A stretch of 64,000 nucleotides of DNA, from assembly GCA_028717245.1 (NCBI GenBank), contig JAQUOD010000002.1, forward strand, positions 76,772-140,771, written 5' to 3'. Below are positions 1-64,000 of the stretch, in pieces (within the stretch, counting starts at the first letter, position 1; each line of letters opens with the position of its first letter). The notes beneath the pieces are model-generated. The model did not search any database. It was not told the origin of the DNA and was given only the letters and a program-made list of their open reading frames with translations. Both the position numbers and the translations under genes were made by a program. This DNA is from Candidatus Omnitrophota bacterium. Its GTDB lineage: Bacteria > Omnitrophota > Gorgyraeia > Gygaellales > Profunditerraquicolaceae.

Positions 1-330
1 ATTAAGGTTGTGGGGCAACCATCAACTGAAACAAGCCAGCCAGCAGAAACTACCACTTCGCCTGCGGATACAGGAACGAAAGAGCAGCAGCCAGCCCAAG
101 CTCCAGTGCCAGTCGAGCCAGAAACCCCAACCTCAGCTCCGACCGCGGTTCCTGCGTCAACGCCAACAGCCGAAGAACCTGCGCCTACTCTTGCTCCGGC
201 CGCAACAGAGCAGCCCGGCGAGCAAGAAGAGGCTGAGGTTAAGGTTGAGGGCGAAAAAGCTCCGGCCGCGGCTCCCGTTGAAGCGAAGCAAGCAGAGGAA
301 AAAGCAGCCGAAGCGCAAGCTGAAAAGGAT
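1..330 (+). other. Low-complexity Pro/Thr/Ala/Glu-rich linker ([16 protein letters not shown]...[16 protein letters not shown])
   Basis: Direct translation of frame +1. Confidence 0.6.
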
Positions 331-51300: not shown

Positions 51301-54300
51301 GGAGCATGGAAGCAGGCATTAGAATTAAGCCAAGATAAGGAACGTTGGCAAAGAATACAGGCCAGCGCCCCGGCAACAGTCAAAACTTGGGATACCCAGT
51401 TTATCAAATACGCCAAAATTATGAAGGAGGCAAGGGCCAGGCAACATGCTACCAGGGTAGTAAAGGATATTTTAGGTTATATCAAGAGCAATATCGAAAC
51501 TTCAGGCCCGCAGGTGGCAGTTAAGCCAGAGTCATTTCTCTATCGCCTTTACCATAGCTTAAATAGGACAATTAATGGGATTATGAAAGAGATTGAGGAA
51601 AGAAAAATTAATCCTTTTGTTAAACTAAACCTGATGAAATTCTCAGAGGAGCCCAAGGACGACCGGCTTTTAGAAGTTGACCGCGAGATGCGTGTAGGGT
51701 TCTTCCCTATAGCAGGAAATCCTCTAACTTGGGCTCATATTTTAACTTCATTAATGGCATTAGAGCTTTTGGGGCTTGATACTGTAGTCTATCGGGTACA
51801 AGGTGAAATACGCTATAAAGAATTACCGGAATCAGACCGCGTTCCGGTAAAGGAGCGTCATGAAATGGCGCAGAGAGTAGTAAATAAATTTTATCCTTTA
51901 CTAAGATACACTGATTTAGGCAGTGAACCAAATAATGAAGAAGAGGGTTTTGAAGAGATGTATAGATTCCTCAAGATGAATTCTAACCACAGGATACACC
52001 TTTATTATTTGCTGGGAGTAGAAAACAAAGAACGGGTTTTAAGATATGCTAAACAACAGTATGGCTTACAATCCCGGCATAAAATTGATTCTAACCACGC
52101 TGTAACCGTAGCGTGGATACAGCGGGGAGAATATGGAACCAACATCACTTTAGAAGAATTAAAGGAGACTTACCGGAAAGTGAAGGAGGAAATTGGAGCG
52201 CAGCAGGATATAGATTTAGCGCTCGTTCAACATCCTGAAGTAGATATCAAAGTGAATTCCGGTGATTATCGCAAAAGCCATGATTCTACTATGGTTCCTT
52301 GCGAGATTGATAAAGACGCAAAAGCACATGGTTATTACGGGTATCCCGCGGTTGATTCCGGGAGGACCGGCTCAATTGTTTCTGACCCCGCCCGCTCAAA
52401 GCCAGATAAACCCAATACCTATGATTTGGATGTTCCAGATGATACATTGAGATTTATTGAAGTAAAGACAGAACCGTCTCCGATAAGCCCTAACATTAAC
52501 TTACCTGCCTATCAAATCCAGAGAGCAATCAGAGATAGAGCAGGTAGAGATATCCCCCTTGAACTCATAAGAGAAGCCCTAAGAAAAATACAACTACATT
52601 GGATGGGCATGCCAGTTAAAAATGACAAGATTCATATTTTTTTACCAAAGACTAAATTAGATACGGATGGGATGAGCTCAAGAGATAAATTAGGGATATA
52701 TATTGATGTAGAGCAACGTGCAATCATGGTAAGCAAATACGGAGATAAATTGTTGCAGCTTGGATTAGCAAATTCCTTTAACGTAGAACAAACAAAGATA
52801 AAAGATATTGAAGTAACGACACCAAAAGGAGATATGAAATGGATAGATTTTATACATCAGCAAGGTTTAATCGATAATAAATTGAAAGAGAGATTATGCG
52901 CTCATAGTTTTTCGTTAGAATTCGACCTCTTTATAGTCGAAACATCTGCAGGTAATACCGTAGAATGTAATTATGTCATTAAAGATCAGAGCATCATTTT
53001 CTACTATAAAGGTAATAACATATACTCACAAGTAAAAGGTGGCGTGCCTTTAGATGAACTTGAGCGCATAAGAGGCGTTATAGCCCATATCCATTCACAT
53101 CCAGGAAAGAAAGTTTGGACGAGCATAGGAGATGCTGAGATGTTCAGGAGCCTTGATGAATATAACAAATCTCCTATATTGCATCTGATAATAGGTTTTG
53201 GTTCCAAAAAGGAAGATTATGTTGTGAAGAGTTATAGAATAAAACCGGATTCTATTTTGTTAACTATAAGACCCTCAGATATTGGTTATTATTTTTATCA
53301 AGAATTTTTTGGTCAGCGAAAAACTACAACAGATATAGAGAGAATTCTCTCTGAAGAATTCAACGAAAGAGAGGAAAGCGGGGGGAGTAGTTCTAAGGAC
53401 AACAGAGATGGTTCTATTTCTGGCACTGATCCCGCCTCCTCCAAGTCCGGTAAAGAGATGACTGATGAAGAAGTGGATGCGGAAATTGCCCAGGCCGGGC
53501 CTAAGGTTAGGGAATTTGCTTTGGCCGATAAAGACAACTTTAGGATTCAAGGTGAGGACTTAAGGCCATTCATCAGCCAGTGCCATCCGGAATTCATACC
53601 TCTCTTAAATGAGCAACTCGCAGATTTAGGCCACCTAAGGGCAGGGCCATTTAGTGACTTAGCCGGCGCTATCCGCAACAAACTCTTCTACATTGATGAA
53701 CAAATCCTCATCCAACCTTTAAAACTGCGGCTTGTTATTCTGCATGAATTAGGTAAATTATCCGGAAGGACCCACCAGCAGAACCTGGAGTTAGAAGCAG
53801 AGTATTTAGTAGCTTGCGTTCAAGAGCAAATCAACTCCCAGAAGAACGCTCCTTCTCAAGTTCCCGCTCTCTTTAAGATTACCCTAGAGAATCCTCTTAT
53901 CATCCAAGACGGTGAGGAAACCATCAAGATAACCTATGATGAATTACAGAACTTAAAGAAAAACCTCCCCAAGGTCCTTGCAGAATATGACGTGCGCGGT
54001 AAGGATGAGTATTTTAGCCGTGAGCTCTTAGTCCTCTTAGGTTTAGCATTAGGCACTGCTACCTTTAACTCCCACCACGGGAAAGAGTCTTTGAAGCCAG
54101 GAGATGTTTATTTAGTGGCAGGAGACAATGGCCCCACAACCCCCAAGATGCGTAAATACCTCTCTATGGGTTTAAGGGCAGCAGGCGTAAATGTGGTAGA
54201 TTTAGGCATCATTGTCAGCGGCCAGCTCTATAGCTCTATCTTTAGATTAGGCGCCCAGGGCGGCCTTTACATTACCCGTTCCCATGTTGAAGTAGGCATA

Positions 54301-57300
54301 AACGGCTTTAAGCCCATTGTCGGCAAGACCACCCTTTATGGAGATATGATTCAAAATATTGGCACTCAGATTGATGAAGGCTTAAGGGTTATGCCTGAAG
54401 CAGACAGAGGCAGCACCATCACTAACCTCACCGAATTCACCACCGCTATCTATCAGGCAAAGCTCTTCCATGAGTTCTCTAGCTTAATGAATACCATTAA
54501 GAATCTCCCCCTTAAGGTTGCGGTTGACTTTGGCGGCGGTTCAGCCACCTGGTATGTGGACTTTGCCAAACAGATGTTAGGCGATAAATTAGTCAAGGTC
54601 TTCCGCAGCGAATCTGACCCCACCTGCACCAAGGGCCTGCCTGACCCATCCAGAGCAGATGATAAGTGCGTAGGGCATCCTAAGTCAGCAGGCGATGAGA
54701 GTATCCTGGAGTGGTCCAAGAAAAACCCGGATGTCATCATCTTCCATTTTGACCTGGATACAGACCGCTGCGGCATTACCATTGCCGGCACCCTTTATAA
54801 AGGAGACATCTTATTTTATCCTGTCATTGACTATGCCTTAACCCTCTCAGCCTACAAAGAACACCATAAGGAGTTTTATTTTGATGCCAGGATGAGCCCG
54901 GCTATCGCTGAGCTAATCCAGAACCTTGGCGGCATTGCCAAGATACACCCTAAAGGACATTCCAAGGTTAAGGCCACTGTTGAGAAATTCCTCCAGGGTC
55001 TTGCTCAAAGCTTAGGCTTTGCTTCAGCAGAAGAACTCGTCTCCAAGCTCGGCATTAAGAACCACCAGATGGAATACAGCCTGCATCCTTTTATCACAAT
55101 TGAGAACGGCGCCTGCATTGACGATGCCTTAAGATTTATGTTTAGCTGGTTGGATGCCTTTATCCAGATAAGGCAAAAATACAACCAGCCAAACTGGCTC
55201 TTGGCGGATTATCTTGATTACCTTAAAGACAATAAGGTCATCAGCAACTGGTATTCGCTTAACGAACAGCGCACCCCTATGCAGGAGGAATATAAGAAAG
55301 ATGTGATGAACGAAATGAGGGACGCAGTCACTAAAGCATTTAAAGGAAACAATGATTTTGAATATGTCCTCTGGCAGGACTTTAAAGTAGCCGCCAAGCC
55401 CTTTACCTTAGTGGATATTGAAGGCGTCTATTACTTCCTTACCCCCAAAGGCATCTTCTACTGGGGCTGGTCAAATACCTCCAGCAAAATCACCTTTGGC
55501 GCGCACTCGCGAAGCCAGGAGGATTTACGCGCCTTAGTTGAGATGATGCTGTCTGTTTACCTTAATATAAGGAATGCTAAAACCAATCTTAAGCCCGATT
55601 CAGCGCATATCATACCCCAAGAGACCGCTGCCTTAATGGCGCTATTTAATCAAAAGGACTTGGTAAAGTTGGAAGGGGATATTCTTAATAGATATCCTTC
55701 AGTAGATGTGGCATTGGAGGAGTTGAGGATAAAGTCTGGGTTTAGTAATCTTATATTGGAAACTATAGAAGGACAATTGAGGAGGACATCCGAGATGTTA
55801 CAAATATCCGAGAGCGTAGCGCAAGCGGCAATACTTAAGAGCATAAACAAAACTATGCTCCTGAATGATTTCGCAGAATCAGTGGGTATATCTACAAAGC
55901 AGGCAATTGAGAATATGGTTAAAGCGGGCCTTGCTATAGCTAAAGGCAAAGATGACTATGATTTGACCGGCGATTTCCATAATGAGGATAAATTAAAGGA
56001 ATTTATTAAAATTCAGGTTGCAACATCAAGCAACCCCAAGATGGTAGACCTTACCTTTATTAGAATAGAAAGGATTATCCTCAATTCTATTAATGTTAAT
56101 GAGTTTATAAAGGGGTTAGCAGGGGATAAAGAGCAGAGCGCAGTAATAGATGTCTTAAGCAAGAATAAATTATTCGCCACATTGGTCGCGGTGTGGAAAT
56201 TAAACCGCGCCTTTAAATCAGAAGCCAAAGATGCAATAGGGCTAAAAGTAGAGGATATAGTTGATATTAAAACTACTGAGTTTTATCGCGAGAACGGCGT
56301 AGAAGTAAGTTTCAGCTTGCCTTCTGGAACTTCCGTTAAGAATAAAGAAGTTTTAGCAACGCTCTTAGAATACCAGGCAGCGCTCATGCAGGATTTGGCC
56401 AAGGGCCAATTTAATTATCGCGGCACAGGCACCAGGCAAACCGTAGAACAATTCTTTAACGATTACTTTATGCCAGAGTGGTATGGAGTAATACATAAAT
56501 TTATCCGCCAGCAATTTGATGAACAGGGAGAACCTTTAGAAGCAATCATCAGCAACGGCATCGGCGCCAATGACCAGTTTATGTGGTCGTTGGTTGAGAT
56601 GTATAACCGTAACAAGCCTGCTGGCGCGCCTACGTGGTACCACATAGTTACAGCAAGAGATTTGGTTAAATTACAACATTTGAACCCGGGAAGGACCCTT
56701 TGCATGGAAATTTCCCGTTCCGGAAGCACTTGGGAAGGGATAGAGGCAGCTATCCGCCTGCTCGCCAAGGGCTTTAAGAAAAGAATCACCCTTGCTAACG
56801 GCGGCGCGCTTGCCGCTATAGCTAAGGCAGCCGGTGATTCTGCGTTGATAATAGGTATGAGCCCGGATATCGGCGGAAGGAACATGCACCGTAAAACTAC
56901 GATTTATTATACCGCGCAAACAATAATGGGCATGTTCTTGCCCGAAATGGATTCTAAGGTATTTGCCGCGCTGCATCATAAATTTGATGCGGCTAATGAT
57001 TTTGCTAACAAAGGCAGCATAGCAGTAAGCTCCGGTAAATTCCTGCACGCAGCTATGAAACTGCTGGGCGTTGAACATATCAGCCTTATAACCAATACCG
57101 AGCAGCTGGCATTAATCGGCTCAGAATGGAGCCAGTATGTTATGGAAGGCAGCAATAAAGAAGACATTATCTCCTTAGGCGCGCACAACCTTATCACTGA
57201 ACCCGAAAGCGTCCTGGCCAATTTAGCAAAGAGCCCCGCAGGAAAGATAACCATTGCCATGGCGCTTCTGGATAAAGCCTCAAATAACTATACAAGAGAT

Positions 57301-60300
57301 TTAGCCAGGGTTGAAGAACTAAAAGCGCGTATGCCGCTTATGCTTTTTGTGATTGATTCCAGCGCTTCAGCATTTAAGGGCTTAGACCCGAAACTCCAGG
57401 CGCCATTTGATATATTGTGGACAGATTTTATTACGGTTCTTACTACGTTCTTACGAGTGGATGCGAATTCCAATCCCAATGTTAAAGTAGTGCGCACACT
57501 CACTGCCTCTTATGTAGCAAAATGGAAAGAAACCAAAGAGAGGTATACTAATGATCTCATTGGGAAAAAAGCTACTGACCTTCTTCTAAGTTTTGGTTAT
57601 CCCGGAAAAGAGGAAGAGCAATCAATCGGAACAGTAGAGAAACAAAAGGCCGTAAATAGCGTAGAGGAAGCAAAAGAAAAAGGCCGTAACTTAGCTAGGT
57701 TCTTAGCCAATAAAGGAATGCTTACCGGCCGTAACCGCTTGAACATTTTCTTCGGGGCGGAGGGCCTGGTCAATCTCGCTGTCGGTTTAAGGAATTATAC
57801 CTATAGCACAGATTTATTAACGAAGTGCGGCTGGATTACTGAGACTGGAATCTATCCTATCCGCGCGCATAAAGGCCATGAGGCAACCTTAGCATATTCC
57901 ACAGATCCTAATAGGCCGCTTTTGGCAAATAGGAGTATTGATATATTCTTAAATGTAAGGCGCCTGGGCGATGAGGCTTACTATAATGAGCCTTTCCAGG
58001 ATGTAGCCAGCCAATATACAAATGTTAACGGCGCTAATATACACCAGACCAATGATTCCATGACTTTCCCTAACATCCAGCGCACGGCGCAAGTCTCTCC
58101 GACCATCCTCTTTGAATTTAATGAAACTACCCCAGATGTTCAAAATAAGATAGAGGCCTTTTATAAAGCATTTGTGGATGAGCTGGCAAAAGGGAGTCTT
58201 GGCGATACGGTTGATGGACCTAAATTACCTGATAACGGCGGCGCCAATCTTTCTTCGTCCAAGACGCCGTTAGCAACCAAAGATGCATGGGAAAAGATCG
58301 GAGCGCAGAAGAGGGCCGGGGTTTTAGTGTCGCTATTTTTCGTATATTCTAAAAAAAGTGCGGGCATTGGAGACTTTAGAGACAAAAGGTTAGTGATAGA
58401 TTGGGCTGTTTTGACCGGAAATTCAATACTTCAGGGCCTACCGCTAAATGATATGGGCGCTAATTTTTGTCCTTACGATTCCGACAGTTCTTTCGCCTTA
58501 GATCCCGTATACACATCATTAGAAATGTTATCTACCGGAGAACAGATCAAGGCTAAGATAGAAAAAATAAGGGAGATGTTTCCTGTTGGTAAGCCTTATG
58601 TGGATTATGGAATAAAGAAAGCAAAGATCCAGCTCCTTTGGGAGATTTACACGGGAAATCCTAACCTTGACTCTTCGGAATTCAGAAAATATAGAGAAGA
58701 AAATTCTTATTGGATGGATGATTTCGCGCTCTTTAAAGTCCTGAAAGATTTAGAAGGCGGGAAACCCTGGTATGAATGGGAAGAGGGATATAAAAACCAC
58801 GATAAAGAGGCCTTAGAAAGTCTTCGCAGAGAACACACAAAAGAAATAACTTTTCATATGTGGGTTCAATGGCAGCTGTATGAGCAGCTTAAAGAGGCTA
58901 AAAAATATGCCGAATCCAGAGAAATTTTGCTAAAGGGCGACCTGCCCCTTTTGGTATCTAAGGATAGCGCAGATGTCTGGGCGCATCCGGAATTCTTTAA
59001 ATTGGAGTTTGCCAGCGGGGCGCCTATGGATATGTATTCTGCTTTAGGACAGCGTTGGGGCATGCCTACATATAACTGGGAAACTATTAAAGCCGATAAT
59101 TTTGGATATTTGAAAGAAAAGCTAAAGTATGCCCAAAATTTCTATCACATTTTAAGGATAGACCATGTCGTAGGTTTATTCCGGATTTGGAGCATACCTT
59201 ATAATGAGCCTTTGGAGAATCAAGGCTTAAATGGATTCTTTGACCCTTGTGAAGAGAATAAATGGGAAGGGCACGGCAAAGAGATATTATCCGCGATGCT
59301 TGAGAGCATAGAGATGCTCCTTTGCGCCGAAGATTTAGGGGTTATCCCCAAGGTATGCACTGACACCTTAAAGGAATTCGGTATCCCGGGTAATGATGTC
59401 CAGCGTTGGGCGAAAGACTGGAAAGGAACACGCAATTTCTTGATGCCTGAGGATTACCGTGAACTTTCTGTGGCAATGTTATCTACGCACGACACGACTA
59501 ACTGGCCGGCATGGTGGGAAAATGAAGCCGGGACTGTTGATGAAAACCTTTTTATCAGAAAGTGCGCGCAGCAGGGAATAGATTATAGCAGCGTAAAAGA
59601 GAAATTATTTGATTTAGGCCTCTCAAGGCATGCAAGATTACGCTGGTTAAATAGCGTTACCTCTAGCGATATCTTGGCCGATATTCTAGGAAAAAGAAAA
59701 GAAGAAATAGCTGATTTTATAGAGATGTATGAAAACACATATCAGGAAAAAGAGAAACTCTGGGAAATCCTAAAGCTTATTGGGCCGATGAGAGAAGAAT
59801 GCGATAGTGATATTCTTAGGGCGGCATTGAAACTCAGTTTAGATTCTAATGCAAGATTCTGCGTAAATACTATTATTGATTACCTGTATTTAGCTTCCGA
59901 TATCTTTAAAGGCGACCCATATCAATATCGGATTAATACTCCGGGCACGGTCAGCGAAAAGAACTGGTCTCTTGTTATGCCCATTCCTCTTGAAGAGCTG
60001 TTAGAGCATGGGATAAATAAAGATATACGTAAGATGGTTGAATCTTCGGGAAGGCGCGCGCCTCAATCAATAAAGGAAGACAATTTAGGCCTTACCTTAA
60101 TTATAAATATACACGATCTAGGAGCAGCAAACGTAGATGAAGCAAGGGGGGGGCTATATATTGATGGTGAAAAAATTGTGACTGGCCTCGAAGACCTGAT
60201 AGGCCTCTTTAAAGAAATTGATTTCCCGCTGACCTTTTATCTTTGGGGTTTATTGAAGACCTCTATTGTGTCTCATTTAGTGCACGGACTTGATTACCCG

Positions 60301-63300
60301 GAGGCGACGAAAGAGCAAGATATTAAAGCATATATAGAAGAGCGCAGGGATTATTTTGGCATAGGCAATGAGATAGAAATAATTGAGGCCAAAGCAATTG
60401 GCGGGGATAACCGCCTTTACCTGCAAATGAAAGTGAACGGAAGAACGCTTTCTATGGCTATCGGGTATCCTACTAAACATGCCACCTATAATTATGCAGG
60501 AAAAGAGATTAAACATAGTGAGCGATTTGGTAATTTCTTCTCTCTTGCTGATTATTCTATCACGCCATATTTAAAGGATCGGGTTGAAGCATTGAGAGGG
60601 TTGATAAAGAAAGCGCAAGGTACTAAAAAGAAGGTTATCGTGGATTTTATTCCTTGGTTATCTCCTGAGGTGCTCACTGACGAAAATTATCATTATTTTA
60701 AACATAAGAAGATAGTCTCGGATAAGACCGACGAGGAGATTTTGAAAGAGAAAGAATGCTTCGGCGTAGTATTCTATCCGCAAGACAATGGAAGAGTTTT
60801 TGTATATTGCAGAACAGACTCACAAGATCAGCTTCGCCCTAATTTAAGCGCTAAAACCGAAGATGGCAGATATTATTGGGAAGAATACTATTTAAATTAC
60901 CTGAAATATTTTATAGATGAGTTTGACGTTGATGGGTTCAGGGTGGATATGGCAGAAGAGTTGTGCGACGAAAGCGGCGATTATTCTCTCCTCAAAAGAG
61001 CGCTCTTTAACGCGATAAACTATGCCTCAGAAAAGAATGGAAGAAAGCTGTATTTTGTGCTCGAGGCCTATGCTAATGTTCACCGCAATATTTTCAGGCC
61101 CTGGAACAAAGAATTAAGTTATTATGCGATTAAGACTTATTATAAGGATGTGATGGATAACATTATTAAAGCTGATACCTTGGGGTTACAAGGTTCTTTA
61201 AACTGGGTGATTAATAACCTAGAGGCAGCCCGCACAGAGGCGGTTTTAATTACTCAGTATGACGATGAGAGCCTCGTAGACTCTGTACCAGACGAAGACA
61301 AAAGGCAACAAGTGATAAAAGAGTATATTGCTCTTGCTAAAGGAGGCTACAATGTCATTTTTTATCTTAACTACCTGGCAGGATTTGCCGGTTGCCTGAC
61401 CCCTGCGGCTGGAGGAATGCGCAAGCAATCTGAAGAAGGGCATACATATTATACACATAAGTTTGCTACTCAAGAAGAATTCAAAACAGTAATGGAACTT
61501 TCTTTGCCTGAAATAATCAAGGGTTCTTATTTCTATAAGCTTATGAAAGAATTACCCGAAGTAGAACGTGTAGAGCTGGAAGGGGGAAGATTAATTATAC
61601 ATTATTCAAATACTTTTAGTTGGATTAGGAGAAACGTGCCTGAGCTTGTGGATAAAGTCATTGTCACTCTTTCAATGGAAGGAAACATCCCTGAGTTCGA
61701 AGGATTTGACGCGCAGGATGCCAATACTAAAGGCGGTATGGGCGCGCACTATGGAGATAAGCTGGAAGGCCTCTTTAAATTGGGTATTAAGGCATATGGC
61801 ATCCAGCCGGGATACTCAAAGATGATGAAGGCAGGAAGATTCGATGATGTTGATTACAGCGGGATTATAAATAAAGGTATCCTACAAAGGGTTTATGATT
61901 CTGAAAACAAGCCGCTTGTAATTCCGGTATATGCCTGGGATAATAACGACCCCAATAATGCATATAATAATCCTTTAATCAATGTTGAGGCTTGGAAAGT
62001 CATCCGCGCAGGAACCGTTGATTTCATCTTAAAGTCGCCTATCTTTGATATCCTCTACACGGATGATAGGGTTTGTCGGTTTGCGCAGGAGATAGTTTTT
62101 GGAAAGGCGGCATTCCAGCTTCTTAAGAGGCTAAATATCATTCCTGATATATTACATTTAAATGAAGCGCATACGGTGGTTGCTGCGGCGCTATTAAGAG
62201 CTGATGACTCAACTTTCAGGAAGACAGCAATTGTGTACACTAATCATACGATTGTGCCTGCTGGCCTTGAAGTTTTCTATTCAGGGCAACTAAAGACTGA
62301 TGTAGACCGCATGATGTATCAGATAGGTATTCCCGGAGAAAGGCATAATGAATTCCGTTCGAGATTCTTAAGCTCAGCCGACGTGGTTAATTTCTGCTAT
62401 GCTGCCACCTACTTTGCGGATGTAATAAACGGTGTCAGTAATGAGCATGCCCGGGCGACCGAAAAATTATTTAAAGCTATGTACGGAAAAGGATTTGATG
62501 TGAGTGTTGTGGGCGTTCTTAACGGTTCTGGGAATAGCTGGAAGAATGATAAGTTACTTTCCATCGAGAAGAAAGGAATGACTCCTGCAGAAGAAGAACT
62601 TTGGAACATTCACGAAGAAGGAAAGGCACTTGCCTATACAGAGGTTGAGGCGAGAACCGGCGTTAAACTTGATCCGCGCAAACCAGCACTTTGGGCGGTC
62701 AGAAGGATTGTGGATTATAAGAGCCAATATCCGATGTTAAGATTCTTAGTCGGGCTTATTTGCGCTGAGCGAGAGGCTCGCTTTACAAGAGATGAGCTCA
62801 AGAATTTAATGTTTAAATTTACCCCTGATTTGCAGATAGACTATAACAGGGAATTAACAGAAGCTGTGCTCGATTATATTTTCCAAGATAGAGAATACGT
62901 AAACGGTTTGGGGATGCAGGTTGTGGTAGGCGGGCCTGAGTATAAGTATATGAGATTCTGGGTTGAAGAGTTTAAGAGATGGTCCGAGATACCCGAGCTT
63001 AAGGGCAGGTTTATTTATGTTCCTGACTCTGACACCCGGCTCCTTAAGATGCAGGCGATCGGAGCGGATATATGTATTAATATGCCTAGGCCCCTTGAAG
63101 AAGCCTGCGGTACTTCTGACCAGAGAACAGGCATAAATGGAGGAGTGAACATTGCTATAAGAGGGGCAGGGCCTGTTGAATGGATAACGGATTATAATGA
63201 AGAGACGCGTGAAGGGAGCGGATTCCTGCTTGATTCATACACTAAACTTTCTTCTGAAGGTTTGGTTGCGGATAATGCGCTATTTTACCGTAAAGCCCCT

Positions 63301-64000
63301 GCTGATATTCTGCAGAAGCTTGAGATAGCTGCAAGAATATTCTATACCGATAAGGCTCAATGGAAGTATCTGATGCATAATTCATATCTGGCAAGCGCAA
63401 AGGTTACAGCCATAGCGATGGAACAAAGATACGCTAGAGATGTGTATAGGCTTGCGCTTAAAAATAGGGAAGATGTATTAAGGAGCCAGAATCCCGCTAA
63501 TAAACCTGATAGCACCTACCCCGGCACCGAAAAAACAGAAGACGTCGGCCTTCCTAATGCTGAGGTAACAGTTGCTTTGGAAGGCAAGAAAGTGAAAGAT
63601 TGGAAGTTATCTATGCCGGAAGGTATTGAGTCAGAATTAGAAGGAAGAATCAAAGCTAAGGCAGATGGGCTTCATAGAGAGTTAATCGCCTGGCTTGCCC
63701 AAACAGAGCATGCCCCACCTTCGGGAATCTATAAATTTCTTCTTTCCTACATAGTTACCTCTCCAGAAAAAGACTTACCTCCTGATGAAACCCTCCTTGG
63801 CAAAGTAGAAATAGCCGATAAAATAATCCACATTGCCTACGCTACCTTAAATAAACCGCAAGCTGTTATTATCTTTGACTTCTTCCGCCACGAAATCCTC
63901 GGCCATATTGCCAAGAATACAGAAGATGAAGGGCTCGCCTGCCAGCCGAGTGAGATTTATTTTAGTACCCATCCGGATGAGCTCTCAAGATTTTTAGAGG
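1..64000 (+). CDS. Internal fragment of one giant multidomain protein gene (frame +1; partial at both ends; more than 21,333 codons in the window)
   Basis: Frame +1 has no stop codon in any region read codon-by-codon (most of 1-37.7 kb, plus spot checks to 64 kb). The ORF track has no complete frame +1 ORF and only ORFs of 208 aa or less in other frames. Recognisable protein domains follow each other in the same frame. Confidence 0.9.
337..552 (+). other. TPR-like helical repeat region ([17 protein letters not shown]...[19 protein letters not shown])
   Basis: Spacing of Ala, Tyr and Gly residues resembles a TPR repeat. Confidence 0.3.
1366..1545 (+). other. Two predicted transmembrane helices ([17 protein letters not shown] ... 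[13 protein letters not shown]) followed by a basic [10 protein letters not shown] stretch
   Basis: Hydrophobic stretches in frame +1. Confidence 0.5.
5299..5780 (+). other. GGDEF diguanylate-cyclase domain with intact GGEEF motif ([10 protein letters not shown]; GGEEF at 5527-5541)
   Basis: Motifs [29 protein letters not shown] and RYGGEEF are all present. Confidence 0.8.
5836..6200 (+). other. Class I SAM-dependent methyltransferase domain ([10 protein letters not shown] motif I; GIDKD; FDLVII; LKVDGRV)
   Basis: Canonical methyltransferase motifs I, post-I, II and III in order. Confidence 0.7.
6760..7010 (+). repeat. Membrane module copy 1 ([13 protein letters not shown]-...[10 protein letters not shown]); its paralog is at 9010-9250
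   Basis: A nucleotide block of about 30 nt, ttcgtccaacatccttagcagtcctatttt, is shared with 9018. The minus-strand track ORFs 6843-7130 and 8988-9380 share the peptide AFFKAGGLR. Confidence 0.65.
7081..7910 (+). other. M28-family zinc aminopeptidase-like domain (SAHFDA ... DDNASG ... NAEEFDGLG ... FHTTKD)
   Basis: The His/Asp, Asp, Glu-Glu and His metal-ligand pattern of M28 is present in order. Confidence 0.6.
8100..8420 (+). other. Zincin-like metallopeptidase motif region ([17 protein letters not shown]; HELGH at 8323-8337)
   Basis: HExxH motif in frame +1. Confidence 0.4.
9010..9250 (+). repeat. Membrane module copy 2, ending in the lipobox-like stretch [22 protein letters not shown]
   Basis: Same evidence as copy 1. 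Confidence 0.65.
10800..11215 (+). other. CBM-like beta-sandwich module copy 1 ([13 protein letters not shown]...[22 protein letters not shown])
   Basis: Paralog of the module at 11545-11905 ([13 protein letters not shown]...[22 protein letters not shown]). Confidence 0.4.
11260..11530 (+). other. Junction cassette J1: TM plus KKRNSK anchor, conserved leader [27 protein letters not shown], then RR-containing signal-peptide-like segment ending VRA/QS
   Basis: Aligns with J2 (14890-15190) and J3 (20290-20515). Confidence 0.5.
11545..11905 (+). other. CBM-like beta-sandwich module copy 2
   Basis: Paralog of the module at 10800-11215. Confidence 0.4.
11915..12195 (+). other. FN3-like (purple-acid-phosphatase N-terminal type) domain copy 1 ([22 protein letters not shown]...[14 protein letters not shown])
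   Basis: About 88% nucleotide identity to copy 2 at 13240-13500. Confidence 0.65.
12199..12336 (+). repeat. Perfect (Thr-Pro)x23 dipeptide linker
   Basis: The acg/act/aca cct/ccg/cca hexamer repeats. The antisense track ORF 12120-12428 reads (GV)n. Confidence 0.95.
12337..13220 (+). other. Clan GH-A TIM-barrel glycoside hydrolase domain #1 (GINTVRTY; acid/base WELGNEYN with Glu at 12664-12666; nucleophile FSEGGTDS with Glu at 12931-12933; [10 protein letters not shown])
   Basis: The GH-A beta4 NE(Y) and beta7 SE(G)G motifs are present. Family (GH5-like or GH72-like) not resolved. Confidence 0.7.
13240..13500 (+). other. FN3-like domain copy 2
   Basis: Paralog of the domain at 11915-12195. 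Confidence 0.65.
13561..14455 (+). other. Three tandem cadherin-like / He_PIG-type beta-sandwich repeats of about 95 aa (PPVI..IP...dL.DYV.D...NATLTG.ILTISA...W.G.T...ITV.D)
   Basis: Three tandem units. A Gly8 tract at 13513-13560 precedes them. Confidence 0.55.
14515..14775 (+). other. Cluster of 3-4 transmembrane helices ([27 protein letters not shown] ... [26 protein letters not shown])
   Basis: Hydrophobic stretches in frame +1. Confidence 0.5.
14890..15190 (+). other. Junction cassette J2: HExxH block ([25 protein letters not shown]; HERTH at 14896-14910), leader [27 protein letters not shown], then SRR plus hydrophobic segment ending VEA/KE
   Basis: Aligns with J1 and J3. The HExxH block recurs at 17473-17550. 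Confidence 0.5.
15190..15960 (+). other. S8 subtilisin-like serine peptidase domain (Asp in VFVLDSG, His in KVHGSIV, Asn in NMSFGN, Ser in GTSMAAP)
   Basis: The Asp/His/Ser triad motifs occur in canonical order. Confidence 0.75.
16020..16890 (+). other. WD40 / PD40-like beta-propeller repeats ([62 protein letters not shown])
   Basis: Six or more repeated blades. Confidence 0.6.
16950..17270 (+). other. Transmembrane cluster; contains an exact 18-nt direct duplication tcttggtgggaggggcta (SWWEGL x2)
   Basis: Direct sequence and hydrophobicity. Confidence 0.5.
17610..17920 (+). other. Transmembrane cluster ([22 protein letters not shown] ... [20 protein letters not shown])
   Basis: Hydrophobic stretches in frame +1. 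Confidence 0.45.
18200..19800 (+). other. Divergent SecA-like / SF2 DEAD-type motor ATPase module (Walker-A-like [24 protein letters not shown]...[14 protein letters not shown]; NBD2-like [24 protein letters not shown]...[22 protein letters not shown]; motif-VI-like [10 protein letters not shown])
   Basis: Residue-by-residue correspondence to the SecA blocks [31 protein letters not shown] and AGR...VTIATNMAGRGTDI / QLRGRSGRQG. The Walker B segment appears degenerate. Confidence 0.4.
20290..20515 (+). other. Junction cassette J3: leader [21 protein letters not shown], then hydrophobic segment [15 protein letters not shown] ending VYA/QS
   Basis: Aligns with J1 and J2; lies immediately upstream of GH-A domain #2. 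Confidence 0.45.
20520..21450 (+). other. Clan GH-A glycoside hydrolase domain #2 (GINTIRTY; [15 protein letters not shown] with Glu at 20857-20859; [12 protein letters not shown] with Glu at 21130-21132; [12 protein letters not shown])
   Basis: Paralog of domains #1 and #3. Confidence 0.7.
22489..22698 (+). repeat. 5 tandem in-frame repeats of 42 nt (14 aa: (I/M)[13 protein letters not shown])
   Basis: Direct sequence. The antisense track ORF 22479-22724 shows the repeated peptide [10 protein letters not shown]. Confidence 0.85.
23335..24600 (+). repeat. About 7 tandem repeats of about 180 nt (60 aa; consensus [21 protein letters not shown]....[12 protein letters not shown]....FYT); unrecognised family
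   Basis: Direct translation. Confidence 0.7.
27190..28090 (+). other. Clan GH-A glycoside hydrolase domain #3 (GINTVRTY; [14 protein letters not shown] with Glu at 27469-27471; [11 protein letters not shown] with Glu at 27790-27792; [10 protein letters not shown])
   Basis: Paralog of #1 and #2. The 17-mer ataaatacagtaaggac is shared with 12454. Confidence 0.65.
31370..32270 (+). other. Polytopic membrane block 1 (about 10 predicted TM helices)
   Basis: Successive hydrophobic stretches of 18-24 aa in frame +1. Confidence 0.55.
33560..34660 (+). other. Polytopic membrane block 2 (about 8 predicted TM helices)
   Basis: Read codon-by-codon across 33.5-34.7 kb; hydrophobic helices separated by short loops. 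Confidence 0.55.
35200..36750 (+). repeat. About 10 tandem alpha-helical repeats of about 60 aa (LP..VR.....VI.DLN.QL..LNTERN.D..KAIK..I..LKDIL); the last three units (36235-36750) are nearly identical in nucleotide sequence
   Basis: Direct translation. The antisense track ORF 36219-36635 contains two copies of the same peptide. Confidence 0.75.
37680..38100 (+). repeat. Conserved module A copy 1 ([37 protein letters not shown]...[25 protein letters not shown]...[21 protein letters not shown]); function unknown
   Basis: About 93% nucleotide identity to copy 2 at 40510-40920. The frame-2 track ORFs 37616-37804 and 40385-40630 give paralogous peptides. Confidence 0.7.
38330..39700 (+). other. 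NTP_transferase-like (sugar-1-phosphate nucleotidylyltransferase fold) module B1 ([19 protein letters not shown]; SYWGDTG)
   Basis: The YGV..D..G.I..F.EKP and W.D.G motifs are typical of RmlA/GlgC/GalU-type pyrophosphorylases. Confidence 0.5.
40510..40920 (+). repeat. Module A copy 2 (second half of a tandem segmental duplication of about 2.8 kb)
   Basis: Same evidence as copy 1. Confidence 0.7.
41640..43000 (+). other. NTP_transferase-like module B2 ([17 protein letters not shown]...LPI; [10 protein letters not shown]; FIEKP; GDWLDTG)
   Basis: Has the GG.G.R...K..LPI, EKP and W.DTG motifs; paralog of B1 and B3. Confidence 0.55.
43930..45100 (+). other. NTP_transferase-like module B3 ([24 protein letters not shown]; [10 protein letters not shown]; GVWFDTGG)
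   Basis: Paralog of B1 and B2. Followed by the conserved tail IPLGW(L/V)YD...YYNPANP(T/S)[18 protein letters not shown], which occurs at 43660-43790 and again at 45607-45726. Confidence 0.55.
45766..46440 (+). other. Glycerophosphodiester-phosphodiesterase (GDPD)-like TIM-barrel region (IIAHGM..NIEQ...[15 protein letters not shown])
   Basis: Partial GDPD motif set. The second catalytic His is not evident, so the region may be degenerate. Confidence 0.3.
49852..51420 (+). other. GT-B glycosyltransferase, GT5 glycogen/starch-synthase-like domain ([20 protein letters not shown]; [10 protein letters not shown]; [10 protein letters not shown])
   Basis: Matches the GlgA-type N-terminal KTGGLADV..ALP motif and the C-terminal GRL..QKG and PS.FEP.G motifs. 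Confidence 0.65.
51650..52100 (+). other. Possible HxGH-class (cytidylyltransferase/NadD-like) Rossmann nucleotidyltransferase ([17 protein letters not shown])
   Basis: G.F.G.F.P.H..H-like N-terminal motif with T/A substitutions. Confidence 0.25.
53975..55350 (+). other. Alpha-D-phosphohexomutase (PGM/PMM)-like domain (DVRGK...; active-site loop [18 protein letters not shown]; metal loop [12 protein letters not shown])
   Basis: TRSHVE sits in place of TASHNP (the Ser is retained) and DLDTDR in place of DGDGDR. Confidence 0.55.
56690..57300 (+). other. SIS-domain, phosphoglucose-isomerase-like region ([17 protein letters not shown]; SPDIGGRNM)
   Basis: Resembles the PGI blocks ISKSGTT.ET and GGRYS. 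Confidence 0.3.
58300..59750 (+). other. GH77 4-alpha-glucanotransferase (amylomaltase/MalQ-like) domain (SAGIGDFRD; [17 protein letters not shown]; [21 protein letters not shown]; [12 protein letters not shown]; CAEDLGVIP; [12 protein letters not shown])
   Basis: All GH77 signature blocks are present, including the catalytic Asp (RIDH), Glu (AEDLG) and Asp (THD). Confidence 0.8.
60620..61480 (+). other. GH13-like (alpha-amylase family) catalytic region ([13 protein letters not shown] resembles conserved region II with the nucleophile Asp)
   Basis: Region II motif at 60934-60969; regions I and III are not clearly canonical. Confidence 0.35.
61880..63420 (+). other. GT35 alpha-glucan phosphorylase-like domain ([18 protein letters not shown]; [15 protein letters not shown]; [26 protein letters not shown])
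   Basis: Matches the short archaeal/bacterial GT35 blocks YTNHTPVPAGHD and EASGTS.MK. The PLP-binding Lys position aligns with Arg. Confidence 0.6.

What the first reader, a model, noticed from the sequence alone, without database searches (positions are those of the whole stretch)
53975..63420. Intact and apparently degenerate catalytic motifs sit side by side
GH77 keeps the Asp/Glu/Asp triad. The three GH-A domains keep both glutamates. S8 keeps its Asp/His/Ser triad. GGDEF keeps GGEEF. Other domains look altered. In the GT35-like domain the PLP-Lys position of EASGTS.MK aligns with Arg ([10 protein letters not shown]). The PGM-like loop reads TRSHVE, not TASHNP. The GDPD-like region lacks the second catalytic His. 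The GH13-like region lacks the canonical region-I motif and the KH after GFRVD. A giant protein may therefore combine active enzymes with substrate-binding pseudo-enzymes. These alignments were made by eye.
Basis: inference. Interest (0 to 1): 0.55.

Follow-up and report, generated by a model that had tools for sequence, protein, structure and literature searches.

The report
Non-canonical glucan enzymes in giant protein
The odd-looking catalytic motifs lie in a run of glycogen/maltodextrin-type enzyme domains inside one enormous Omnitrophota-type protein, and most of them are conserved lineage signatures rather than decay, including a phosphorylase-like domain whose whole clade carries arginine where phosphorylases attach their vitamin-B6 cofactor.

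Summary
The whole 64-kb window is one stop-free frame of 21,333 aa that runs off both ends. Its closest relatives are giant genes of Candidatus Omnitrophota.

The reading "degenerate, so pseudo-enzyme" mostly fails.
- **PGM-like:** TRSHVE keeps the catalytic Ser-His, the DxDxDR metal loop, the E-S-H sugar loop and the SNT phosphate loop. All seven close relatives share TRSHVE.
- **GH13-like:** it lacks both family histidines, but the Arg/Asp, Glu and Asp are invariant in 32 family members and align to GH13 regions I-IV.
- **GT35-like:** Arg21042 does sit on the PLP-lysine position (Lys609 of Segatella copri phosphorylase). But 106 of 110 homologue clusters and 13 of 13 giant-gene copies also carry Arg, while other active-site motifs stay invariant. 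This is a conserved clade without the Schiff-base lysine, not local decay.
- **GDPD-like:** only this domain shows a loss specific to this copy (HR…HD to HG…WG).

Most likely this is a TM-free tail of divergent but constrained α-glucan enzymes. No activity has been tested.

The parts
1..63999 (+). Single stop-free reading frame (21,333 aa) running off both window ends; a fragment of a giant gene
   Evidence: the only open stretch of at least 300 aa in six frames; searches find almost no other ORFs
37588..63999 (+). TM-free tail (aa ~12530-21333) that holds all the sugar-phosphate and alpha-glucan domains
   Evidence: about 30 strongly hydrophobic 19-mers between aa 456 and 12525, and none convincing afterwards
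53968..55680 (+). PGM/PMM-like four-domain module (aa ~17990-18560) with TRSHVE in place of TGSHNP
   Evidence: Pfam PGM_PMM_I E 5e-8 and PGM_PMM_II E 2e-4; PDB PMM/PGM E 2e-12; clade alignment A5; NCBIfam PgmG 70 bits, below the 600-bit cut-off
54280..54285 (+). Codons for Ser18094-His18095, aligned to the phosphoserine-His of PMM/PGM
54751..54768 (+). Metal-binding loop D18251-L-D-T-D-R18256 (canonical DGDGDR)
   Evidence: the D, D, D and R columns are invariant
55681..58345 (+). About 880 aa with no family assignment between the PGM-like and GH77 modules. An ISRSGST/GIGAN stretch looks SIS/PGI-like by eye only
   Evidence: No hit in Pfam at E up to 10, NCBIfam or PDB phmmer
58346..59979 (+). 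GH77 4-alpha-glucanotransferase domain (aa 19450-19993) with D19721, E19777 and D19831
   Evidence: Pfam E 3e-115; Thermus amylomaltase E 1e-53 with aligned catalytic motifs
60118..61617 (+). Divergent clan GH-H (GH13-like) domain (aa 20040-20539). D20215 (region I), R20314/D20316 (II), E20355 (III) and D20421 (IV) are kept. NH of region I, KH of region II and His of region IV are absent
61618..63462 (+). GT35-like phosphorylase-fold module (aa 20540-21154), a full-length counterpart of stand-alone ~620-aa proteins
   Evidence: 61% identity end to end with the 634-aa P0003; AF2 pLDDT 93; Foldseek top 50 all glycogen phosphorylases; TIGR02094 E 1e-31 at 110 bits, below the 191.7 cut-off
63124..63126 (+). 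AGA codon for Arg21042 at the position of the PLP Schiff-base lysine
   Evidence: ScGP Lys609 is the PLP site (PMC12912991)
45763..46440 (+). GDPD-like domain (aa ~15255-15480): AHG…EID…VAWWG. It lacks the Arg of HR, the PENT segment, and the second His-Asp
   Evidence: Pfam GDPD E 8e-5; 2pz0 E 9e-7 with alignment; a related copy in P0169 keeps HR…HD
49705..51441 (+). GlgA-like GT5 glycogen-synthase domain (aa ~16569-17147). RLATQKG and FEPAG are kept; KxGGL reads QVGGI
   Evidence: Pfam PF08323 E 2e-12; TIGR02095 E 2e-37 at 129 bits, below the 328 cut-off; sequence
5293..5769 (+). GGDEF domain with RYGGEEF (aa 1843-1847) and an upstream RxxD
   Evidence: Pfam E 9e-49
15178..15915 (+). S8 subtilase domain: D5072, H5104, N5207, S5269
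   Evidence: Pfam E 5e-23; subtilisin BPN' E 1e-15 covering Asn and Ser; Asp and His by eye with subtilisin-like spacing
12328..13260 (+). GH-A (GH158-like) domain 1: E4222 and E4311
20566..21483 (+). GH-A (GH158-like) domain 2: E6953 and E7044
27166..28278 (+). GH-A (GH158-like) domain 3: E9157 and E9264

Best explanation
The interval is part of a membrane-anchored giant multi-enzyme protein of the Omnitrophota type. After about 30 hydrophobic segments in the first 12,500 aa, a tail of at least 8,800 aa with no TM segments strings together enzymes of alpha-1,4-glucan and hexose-phosphate metabolism. In order these are a GlgA-like GT5, a PGM-like mutase, about 880 unassigned residues, a GH77 4-alpha-glucanotransferase, a divergent GH13-like (clan GH-H) domain, and a GT35-like phosphorylase-fold domain.

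Shown:
- The 'degenerate' motifs of three of these modules are lineage-specific signatures, conserved among their homologues.
- The PGM-like and GH13-like domains keep the residues that perform catalysis.
- The GT35-like domain belongs to a large clade in which the PLP Schiff-base lysine is always arginine.
- In the main branch of that clade the Tyr of the (E/P)DY motif and the Lys of AGKAHP are also replaced, while other active-site motifs shared with phosphorylases stay invariant.

Inferred:
- These modules are working, non-canonical enzymes held together on one polypeptide.
- Together they could interconvert glucan, maltodextrin, glucose-1-phosphate and glucose-6-phosphate, as MalP/GlgP, MalQ and Pgm do.
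- The GT35-like module would act without covalently bound PLP. It might bind a phosphate-bearing ligand (Pi, a sugar phosphate or an NDP-sugar) through the RR…YK and Arg21042 cluster.
- Only the GDPD-like domain further upstream looks like a true loss-of-function copy.
For: - One ORF.
- Omnitrophota affinity: best protein hits 60-61%, best genomic locus 78%. SecA-like domain, as reported for these giant genes (10.1101/2023.11.21.568195).
- TM-free tail.
- PGM-like: the Ser-His, DxDxDR, E-S-H and S-N-T columns are invariant across the clade and canonical PMM/PGMs, and [11 protein letters not shown] is identical in 7 relatives.
- GH13-like: 67 representatives among 1.84 billion proteins, nearly all inside multi-thousand-residue proteins. 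D, RxD, E and D are invariant in 32 members. The family profile hits only GH13 structures and aligns regions I-IV.
- GT35-like fold and family: phmmer and profile alignments to ScGP, E. coli GlgP and rabbit GP. AF2 pLDDT 93 with the Foldseek top 50 all GT35.
- GT35-like conservation: 106 of 110 homologue clusters carry Arg, and only the 4 distant canonical ones carry Lys. All 13 giant-gene copies carry Arg. Invariant active-site columns are listed.
- GT35-like module mobility: it is 50-78% identical between giant genes whose flanks share no detectable similarity with the window's flanks. Stand-alone versions sit among housekeeping genes.
- GH77 intact.
- GDPD-like loss relative to a paralogue.
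Against: - No biochemical data exist for any of these clades.
- Every characterised GT35 enzyme needs Lys-bound PLP, so a Lys-to-Arg clade may have no phosphorylase activity at all.
- The GH13-like domain lacks both histidines that stabilise the transition state in GH13.
- The PGM-like clade lacks the Arg of the RASNT phosphate loop.
- All NCBIfam scores fall far below the curated cut-offs.
- Which side of the membrane the tail sits on is unknown. West-Roberts et al. predicted similar sugar-phosphate domains to be extracellular. There, ATP, NDP-sugars and glucose-1,6-bisphosphate would be lacking, and a binding role would be more plausible.
- Conservation shows constraint, not catalysis.
- The pathway logic is inference from domain content. 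About 880 aa in the middle are unassigned.
Confidence: 0.6

Rival explanations
1. The altered domains (GT35-like, PGM-like, GH13-like, GDPD-like) are catalytically dead pseudo-enzymes. They are kept as glucan- or sugar-phosphate-binding or scaffolding modules next to active GH77, GH-A, S8 and GGDEF domains.
For: - The PLP lysine is truly absent.
- In the main clade the Tyr of (E/P)DY and the Lys of AGKAHP are also replaced.
- The GH13-like domain lacks two family histidines.
- The GDPD-like domain lacks HR/HD, which a related copy keeps.
- All curated family cut-offs are missed.
- A possible extracytoplasmic location has been discussed in 10.1101/2023.11.21.568195 and 10.64898/2026.06.07.730766.
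Against: - Residues that only make sense for chemistry are invariant. These are the PGM Ser-His plus the three metal-binding Asp, the GH13-like Arg/Asp/Glu/Asp, and the GT35-like NE.H, T.HT and RR…YK motifs.
- The same variant motifs occur in stand-alone single-domain genes of free-living lineages, where a pure scaffold role is unlikely.
- Binding-only modules usually drift at the catalytic positions.
Confidence: 0.2
2. The GT35-like module is not a phosphorylase. It is a PLP-independent glucosyltransferase (synthase) that uses an NDP-glucose or sugar-phosphate donor. This would be a lineage close to the hypothetical NDP-sugar-dependent ancestor of GT35, or a reversion to it.
For: - The Pfam PF08323 starch-synthase domain hits its N-terminal half.
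- A weaker GlgA match exists, E 9e-14.
- PGAP names its relatives 'glycogen/starch synthase'.
- The Lys, the Tyr of (E/P)DY and the Lys of AGKAHP, all typical of canonical sequences, are replaced.
- GT5 and GT35 share the R…K and E-x-C-G loop. This is established GT-B knowledge; the proto-GT35 idea is stated in PMC11046441.
Against: - Sequence and fold are clearly closer to GT35: TIGR02094 at 1e-31 against GlgA at 9e-14, Foldseek top 50 all phosphorylases, and 48 of 49 profile hits GT35.
- No nucleotide-binding motif was identified.
- The ORF already carries a separate GlgA-like domain.
Confidence: 0.15
3. Artefact. The odd residues come from sequencing or assembly errors, or the giant frame is a chimera.
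For: AGA (Arg) is one base away from AAA (Lys). The exact DNA was not found in the two public collections scanned.
Against: - The same residues recur in more than 100 independent homologues and in 13 other giant-gene copies.
- The window has 64 kb without a stop in one frame only.
- Seventeen related loci carry the module inside open frames of more than 2,600 aa.
Confidence: 0.02

Closest known systems
Omnitrophota giant 'multi-enzyme metabolic' proteins / Archaeovorins (West-Roberts et al. 2023, bioRxiv 10.1101/2023.11.21.568195; 2026 preprint 10.64898/2026.06.07.730766)
   Same: An ORF of tens of kilobases, many TM helices, a divergent SecA-like domain, and PF08323 'starch synthase', PGM/PMM, peptidase, WD40 and TPR content. 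The best homologues are Omnitrophota MAGs.
   Different: Term searches of both papers ('catalytic', 'catalytic residues', 'active site', 'pseudo') turned up no discussion of catalytic residues. Here one of the two PF08323-labelled domains proves to be a phosphorylase (GT35) homologue without the PLP lysine. The domain order is not shared with the other giant genes fetched.
GT35 'alpha-glucan family phosphorylase' (TIGR02094; Segatella copri GP, PDB 9l6i)
   Same: GT-B fold (Foldseek E 4e-28, TMq 0.71). Shared GGLG, NE.H, T.HT, NGVS..H, RR…YK and EA(C/S)GTS motifs.
   Different: Arg instead of the PLP lysine. AGKAHP has become GGIAP, and the Tyr of (E/P)DY is Ser or Cys in the main clade. The protein is about 620 aa, without the DUF3417 N-terminus or the C-terminal beta domain, and has an extra PE(L/F)..AN insertion before GGLG. 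It scores 110 bits against a 191.7 cut-off.
Alpha-D-phosphohexomutases (P. aeruginosa PMM/PGM, PDB 1k35 and others)
   Same: Four-domain layout. Phosphoserine Ser-His, DxDxDR metal loop, E-x-S-x-H sugar loop and S-N-T phosphate loop.
   Different: TRSHVEVG instead of TGSHNPxx. The Arg of RASNT is deleted. There are several insertions, about 25-30% identity, and 70 bits against a 600 cut-off.
GH13 alpha-amylase family / clan GH-H
   Same: Regions I-IV align. The Asp (I), Arg and nucleophile Asp (II), acid/base Glu (III) and Asp (IV) are conserved.
   Different: No Pfam PF00128 hit. NH of region I has become WL, KH of region II has become EE, and His of region IV has become Tyr/Phe. The family is tiny (67 representatives in 1.84 billion proteins) and almost confined to giant proteins.
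GH77 amylomaltase (Thermus, PDB 2x1i / 1cwy)
   Same: Full-length match with the Asp/Glu/Asp triad and surrounding motifs.
   Different: Embedded in a giant polypeptide, with extra insertions. Otherwise conventional.
GDPD glycerophosphodiester phosphodiesterases (PDB 2pz0)
   Same: First His, the E-x-D metal ligands and the LTKDG motif.
   Different: Arg of HR, the PENT segment and the second His-Asp are missing. The Pfam score of 23.3 is just under the 23.6 cut-off.

Membership tests
GT35 glycogen/alpha-glucan phosphorylase | Lysine forming the Schiff base with PLP (PROSITE-type motif EA[SC]GxGxMK) | tested here: not met
   Arg21042 aligns to ScGP Lys609 and to the K of E. coli GlgP TSNMK. 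Arg is present in 106 of 110 relatives.
GT35 glycogen/alpha-glucan phosphorylase | GT-B fold closest to phosphorylases | tested here: met
   AF2 model pLDDT 93. Foldseek top 50 all GT35, best E 4e-28. 48 of 49 profile hits are GT35.
GT35 glycogen/alpha-glucan phosphorylase | Curated family score (TIGR02094 cut-off 191.7 bits) | tested here: not met
   110 bits, E 1.3e-31.
GT35 glycogen/alpha-glucan phosphorylase | Other motifs shared with canonical phosphorylases (GGLG, NE.H, T.HT, R-R…Y-K). Their roles in substrate or phosphate binding are assigned from knowledge of rabbit GP, not tested here | tested here: met
   Invariant columns G44/G45/G47, E188/H190, H215, R367/R368/Y372/K373 in A3.
GT35 glycogen/alpha-glucan phosphorylase | Pi-dependent glucan phosphorolysis | not testable with these tools
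   Needs an enzyme assay.
GT5 glycogen/starch synthase (for the GT35-like module) | Best match to GlgA models, KxGGL motif, NDP-sugar use | tested here: not met
   GlgA E 9e-14 covers the N-terminal half only, weaker than TIGR02094. Only 1 of 49 PDB profile hits is GT5. Donor use is untestable here.
Alpha-D-phosphohexomutase (PGM/PMM) | Phosphoserine loop T-x-S-H | tested here: met
   S18094-H18095 align to Ser108-His109 of PaPMM/PGM.
Alpha-D-phosphohexomutase (PGM/PMM) | Metal loop D-x-D-x-D-R | tested here: met
   D18251, D18253, D18255 and R18256 are invariant.
Alpha-D-phosphohexomutase (PGM/PMM) | Sugar-binding loop (GEMSGH) and phosphate-binding loop (RASNT) | tested here: inconclusive
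   E18358, S18360, H18362 and S-N-T 18491-18493 are invariant, but the loop Arg is deleted in the whole clade.
Alpha-D-phosphohexomutase (PGM/PMM) | Curated family score | tested here: not met
   PgmG 69.9 bits against 600. Pfam PGM_PMM_I passes (33 against 22.5), while PGM_PMM_II reaches 22 against 29.3.
GH13 / clan GH-H | Catalytic Asp (nucleophile), Glu (acid/base), Asp (transition-state stabiliser) and the Arg of region II | tested here: met
   R20314, D20316, E20355 and D20421 align to GH13 regions II-IV and are invariant in 32 family members.
GH13 / clan GH-H | His of region I and His of region IV; Pfam PF00128 membership | tested here: not met
   DFIPWL and QYD. There is no PF00128 hit, and the best PDB profile E is only 1e-6.
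GH13 / clan GH-H | (beta/alpha)8 barrel fold | tested here: inconclusive
   The AF2 model from a 2-sequence alignment reached only pLDDT 46, which is unusable.
GH77 | Asp/Glu/Asp triad and the family profile | tested here: met
   Pfam 386 bits; aligned RIDH, AEDLG and THD.
GDPD | Two catalytic His (HR…HD) plus E/D/E metal ligands | tested here: not met
   The first His and E-x-D are kept. The second His-Asp has become Trp-Gly, and the Arg and PENT segment are missing.
Omnitrophota giant multi-enzyme proteins | ORF of more than 10,000 aa, many TM helices, a SecA-like domain, mixed enzyme domains, Omnitrophota relatives | tested here: met
   The source organism itself was not identified.

The most novel reading that the evidence does not exclude
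The Arg-for-Lys GT35-like proteins form an uncharacterised, catalytically active branch of the phosphorylase family that works without covalently bound PLP. They include at least 106 clusters at 90% identity. They occur as stand-alone ~620-aa genes in Sedimentisphaerales, Elusimicrobiota, Wolfebacteria and Omnitrophota, and as a recurrent, shuffled module of Omnitrophota giant genes. They could be a phosphorylase using another acid/base, or a glucosyltransferase using an NDP-sugar or sugar phosphate. Either way they would give an experimental handle on how phosphorylases came to use PLP. They would also imply that part of what is catalogued as 'GT5 starch synthase' in giant-protein surveys is really this family.
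Probability: 0.3. Interest if true: 0.8.

Novelty: new variant of a known kind. Interest (0 to 1): 0.55.

Why it matters
Giant Omnitrophota proteins are known, but nobody has asked whether their enzyme-like modules can work. This analysis shows that eye-level 'degenerate motif' calls are unreliable there, because most deviations are conserved family signatures. It also singles out two things worth bench work. The first is a widespread phosphorylase-fold clade that has replaced the supposedly universal PLP lysine by arginine. The second is a small GH13-like family almost confined to giant proteins. If the GT35-like clade is active, it challenges the rule that all GT35 enzymes are PLP enzymes, and it bears on the proposed NDP-sugar ancestry of phosphorylases. 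If it is inactive, it is a large, strongly conserved pseudo-enzyme family, which would also be notable.

Tried and rejected
- **Source lookup.** Exact-match scans for a 57-nt stretch of the window in genome contigs and metagenome contigs found nothing, so the source record was not identified.
- **GH13-like structure.** Only one homologue could be used. AF2 gave pLDDT 46, and the model was discarded with no fold search.
- **PGI/SIS-like idea.** My by-eye reading of aa ~18800-19400 found no support in Pfam at E up to 10, NCBIfam or PDB phmmer. I report it only as an unverified impression.
- **Genomic context of stand-alone GT35-like genes.** P0003 and P0032 sit among housekeeping neighbours with no glycogen operon, which is uninformative for function.
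- **Shared domain order.** I looked for collinearity between this window and other giant genes. None was found beyond single modules.
- **Second PF08323 hit.** I tested whether the hit at aa 16627-16777 is a paralogue of the GT35-like module. It is not; it is GlgA-like.
- **Sequencing-error explanation for AGA.** Rejected because the residue is conserved across homologues.
Full report
**What is there.** The 64,000-base window contains a single stop-free frame (+ strand, frame 0) of 21,333 codons that runs off both ends. No other open stretch of at least 300 aa exists in any frame. It is therefore a fragment of a giant gene.

A Pfam scan in overlapping chunks gives the following map:
- TPR
- GGDEF (aa 1765-1923)
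- a methyltransferase
- M28 peptidase
- GH2_C/GH72-like TIM barrels
- FN3
- S8 subtilase plus WD40
- SecA-like P-loop and preprotein-binding domains (aa 6290-6546)
- NTP-transferase and fucose-pyrophosphorylase-like pieces
- a weak GDPD hit (aa 15270-15319)
- PF08323 'starch synthase' (aa 16627-16777)
- PGM_PMM_I/II (aa 17995-18259)
- GH77 (aa 19450-19993, E 3e-115)
- a second PF08323 hit (aa 20578-20819)

A hydropathy scan finds about 30 strongly hydrophobic segments between aa 456 and 12,525 and none convincing after that. All the sugar-phosphate and glucan domains therefore sit in one TM-free tail of at least 8,800 aa.

**Origin.** Exact DNA look-ups failed. The best protein hits (60-61% identity) and the best genomic locus (78%) are Candidatus Omnitrophota MAGs. 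The SecA-like domain, the TM-rich architecture and the PF08323/PGM content match published descriptions of Omnitrophota giant genes (10.1101/2023.11.21.568195; 10.64898/2026.06.07.730766). Term searches of both papers found no discussion of catalytic residues.

**Checking the 'intact' motifs.**
- *GH77.* It aligns to Thermus amylomaltase at E 1e-53, with RIDH, AEDLGVI and THD in register (D19721, E19777, D19831).
- *GH-A.* An internal phmmer search located three paralogous domains at aa ~4110-4420, 6856-7161 and 9056-9426. All keep W/D-E-x-GNEYN and KP(I/M)Y-x-SE(T/G)G. The best structural relatives by sequence are GH158 enzymes (E 3e-15).
- *GGDEF.* The motif is RYGGEEF at aa 1843, with an RxxD five residues upstream.
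- *S8.* Asn5207 and Ser5269 align to subtilisin BPN'. Asp5072 (VLDSG) and His5104 (HGS) were identified by eye, with the same 32-residue spacing as in subtilisin.

These claims hold. The GGDEF, S8 and GH-A domains lie far outside the coordinates given for the finding.

**PGM-like module.** phmmer aligns [14 protein letters not shown] with LTGSHNPPDYNGFK of P. aeruginosa PMM/PGM, and FDLDTDR with FDGDGDR. A homologue search returned seven close relatives, from Omnitrophota and other uncultured lineages, plus canonical PMM/PGMs.

In the joint alignment, four elements are invariant across both groups:
- the Ser-His
- the D-x-D-x-D-R loop
- an E-x-S-x-H stretch matching GEMSGH
- the S-N-T stretch of the phosphate loop

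[11 protein letters not shown] is identical in all seven relatives. The clade lacks the Arg of RASNT.

**GH13-like module.** Alone, the region hits GH13 only through region II (E 0.012). The word-indexed search found one homologue. The exhaustive HMMER search found 67 representatives in 1.84 billion proteins, nearly all inside proteins of thousands of residues.

In an alignment of 32 members, the Asp of (V)DF(I)PW is nearly invariant (Asn in a few). The R-x-D, the Glu of F-x-x-E-x-Y and the Asp of N-(F/Y/H)-D are invariant. A profile of ten members hits only GH13 structures (6k5p at E 1e-6, 4gkl, CGTases). It aligns these four elements to GH13 regions I-IV.

But the catalytic Asp/Glu/Asp and the Arg are in place. 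A two-sequence AF2 model was unusable (pLDDT 46).

**GT35-like module.**
- *Extent.* The module (aa 20540-21154) matches a stand-alone 634-aa protein end to end at 61% identity.
- *The lysine position.* phmmer and profile alignments place Arg21042 (codon AGA, nt 63124-63126) on Lys609 of Segatella copri glycogen phosphorylase, the residue shown to carry PLP (PMC12912991). It also falls on the K of TSNMK in E. coli GlgP.
- *Fold.* The AF2 model is confident (pLDDT 93), and its 50 best Foldseek matches in the PDB are all glycogen phosphorylases. NCBIfam prefers TIGR02094 (E 1e-31) over GlgA (9e-14), but the score of 110 bits is below the 191.7 cut-off.
- *Conservation of Arg.* This is the decisive point. 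Of the 110 listed homologue clusters that cover the motif, 106 have Arg (81 read ACGTSDQR). Only the four distant canonical DUF3417+PF00343 proteins have Lys. All 13 copies checked inside other giant ORFs have Arg.
- *The rest of the site.* GGLG, NE.H, T.HT, NGVS..H, RR…YK and EACGT remain invariant. AGKAHP becomes GGIAP, and the Tyr of (E/P)DY is lost in the main branch but kept in the basal Arg-bearing branches.
- *Phylogeny.* A neighbour-joining tree separates Arg-bearing from Lys-bearing sequences by a long branch. The rooting on the Lys group was imposed.
- *Genomic setting.* In 17 of 22 related genomic loci the module lies in an open frame of more than 2,600 aa (up to 7,292).
- *Module shuffling.* The flanks of these loci show no detectable similarity to the window's flanks. 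Only the module itself is conserved, at 50-78% identity.
- *Stand-alone genes.* These sit among housekeeping genes.

This pattern is purifying selection on a remodelled site, not decay.

**GDPD-like domain.** The alignment to 2pz0 (E 9e-7) puts Trp-Gly on the second His-Asp. By eye, AHRG…PENT is shortened to AHG-MKNIEQ. A related domain in another giant-protein fragment, P0169, keeps H-R and H-D. This is the one case where a copy-specific loss is supported, although it rests on a single comparator.

**Interpretation.** The tail carries the parts list of alpha-1,4-glucan and hexose-phosphate interconversion:
- a GlgA-like GT5 (TIGR02095 E 2e-37, below cut-off)
- a PGM-like mutase
- GH77
- a GH-H domain
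- a phosphorylase-fold domain

I infer a tethered multi-enzyme array working on glycogen or maltodextrin. The steps that are shown are domain identity, retention of core catalytic residues in the PGM-like, GH13-like and GH77 domains, and the clade-wide Lys-to-Arg replacement. The steps that are inferred are activity, pathway logic, cytoplasmic location, and what the Arg-bearing site binds.

A review has proposed that PLP replaced a nucleotide in an NDP-sugar-dependent proto-GT35 (PMC11046441). The Arg clade would be an obvious place to test that idea. My literature searches found no description of a PLP-lysine-less phosphorylase clade, but absence from this library is not proof of novelty.

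**Verdict.** The object belongs to a known kind, the Omnitrophota giant multi-enzyme proteins, and contains new variants of known enzyme families.

Noticed in passing
window 1-63999: The entire window is one stop-free frame of 21,333 codons that runs off both ends. The gene is therefore longer than 64 kb.
   Followed up: yes
window 1366-37575 (aa 456-12525) versus 37588-63999: About 30 strongly hydrophobic, TM-like segments are spread over the first 12.5k residues, including a dense cluster at aa 10124-11557. The last 8,800 residues or more have none. The topology (which side the tail is on) is unresolved.
   Followed up: partly
window 18868-19638 (aa 6290-6546): Weak SecA preprotein-binding and SecA P-loop hits (E 5e-4 and 1e-4). 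These match the 'divergent SecA DEAD' hallmark reported for Omnitrophota giant genes.
   Followed up: no
window 49705-51441 (aa 16569-17147): A GlgA-like GT5 domain keeps RLATQKG and FEPAG, but its KxGGL motif reads QVGGI, so the Lys of KxGGL is replaced by Gln.
   Followed up: partly
window 61618-63462 and loci L005-L026: The Pfam label PF08323 'starch synthase catalytic domain', counted as GT5 in published giant-protein surveys, here marks a phosphorylase (GT35) homologue. Some literature 'GT5' counts may include this family.
   Followed up: partly
loci L005-L026; P0122-P0188: Giant genes share individual modules (GT35-like 50-78% identity, GH13-like 25-44%), but not their neighbours or their order. 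This points to module shuffling between giant ORFs.
   Followed up: partly
window 55681-58345 (aa 18561-19448): About 880 residues between the PGM-like and GH77 modules have no family hit at all. A GIGAN…[10 protein letters not shown] stretch looks SIS/PGI-like by eye. Relatives P0189 and P0194 carry PGI/SIS-like sequence next to their PGM-like domain.
   Followed up: partly
window 21001-36000 (aa 7001-12000): About 5,000 residues have no Pfam hit at E up to 0.001. Within them lie the third GH158-like domain (found only by internal comparison, aa 9056-9426) and TM clusters.
   Followed up: no
window 12328-13260, 20566-21483, 27166-28278: The three GH-A domains are closest to GH158 (endo-beta-1,3-glucanase family) rather than to GH2 or GH72, the families their Pfam hits suggest. 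They are 40-44% identical to each other.
   Followed up: partly
window 38398-45300 (aa ~12800-15100): Weak NTP-transferase, GlgC/UDP-glucose-pyrophosphorylase-like and fucose-pyrophosphorylase-like hits lie upstream of the glucan modules. They may be sugar-nucleotide-forming domains. Their catalytic residues were not examined.
   Followed up: no
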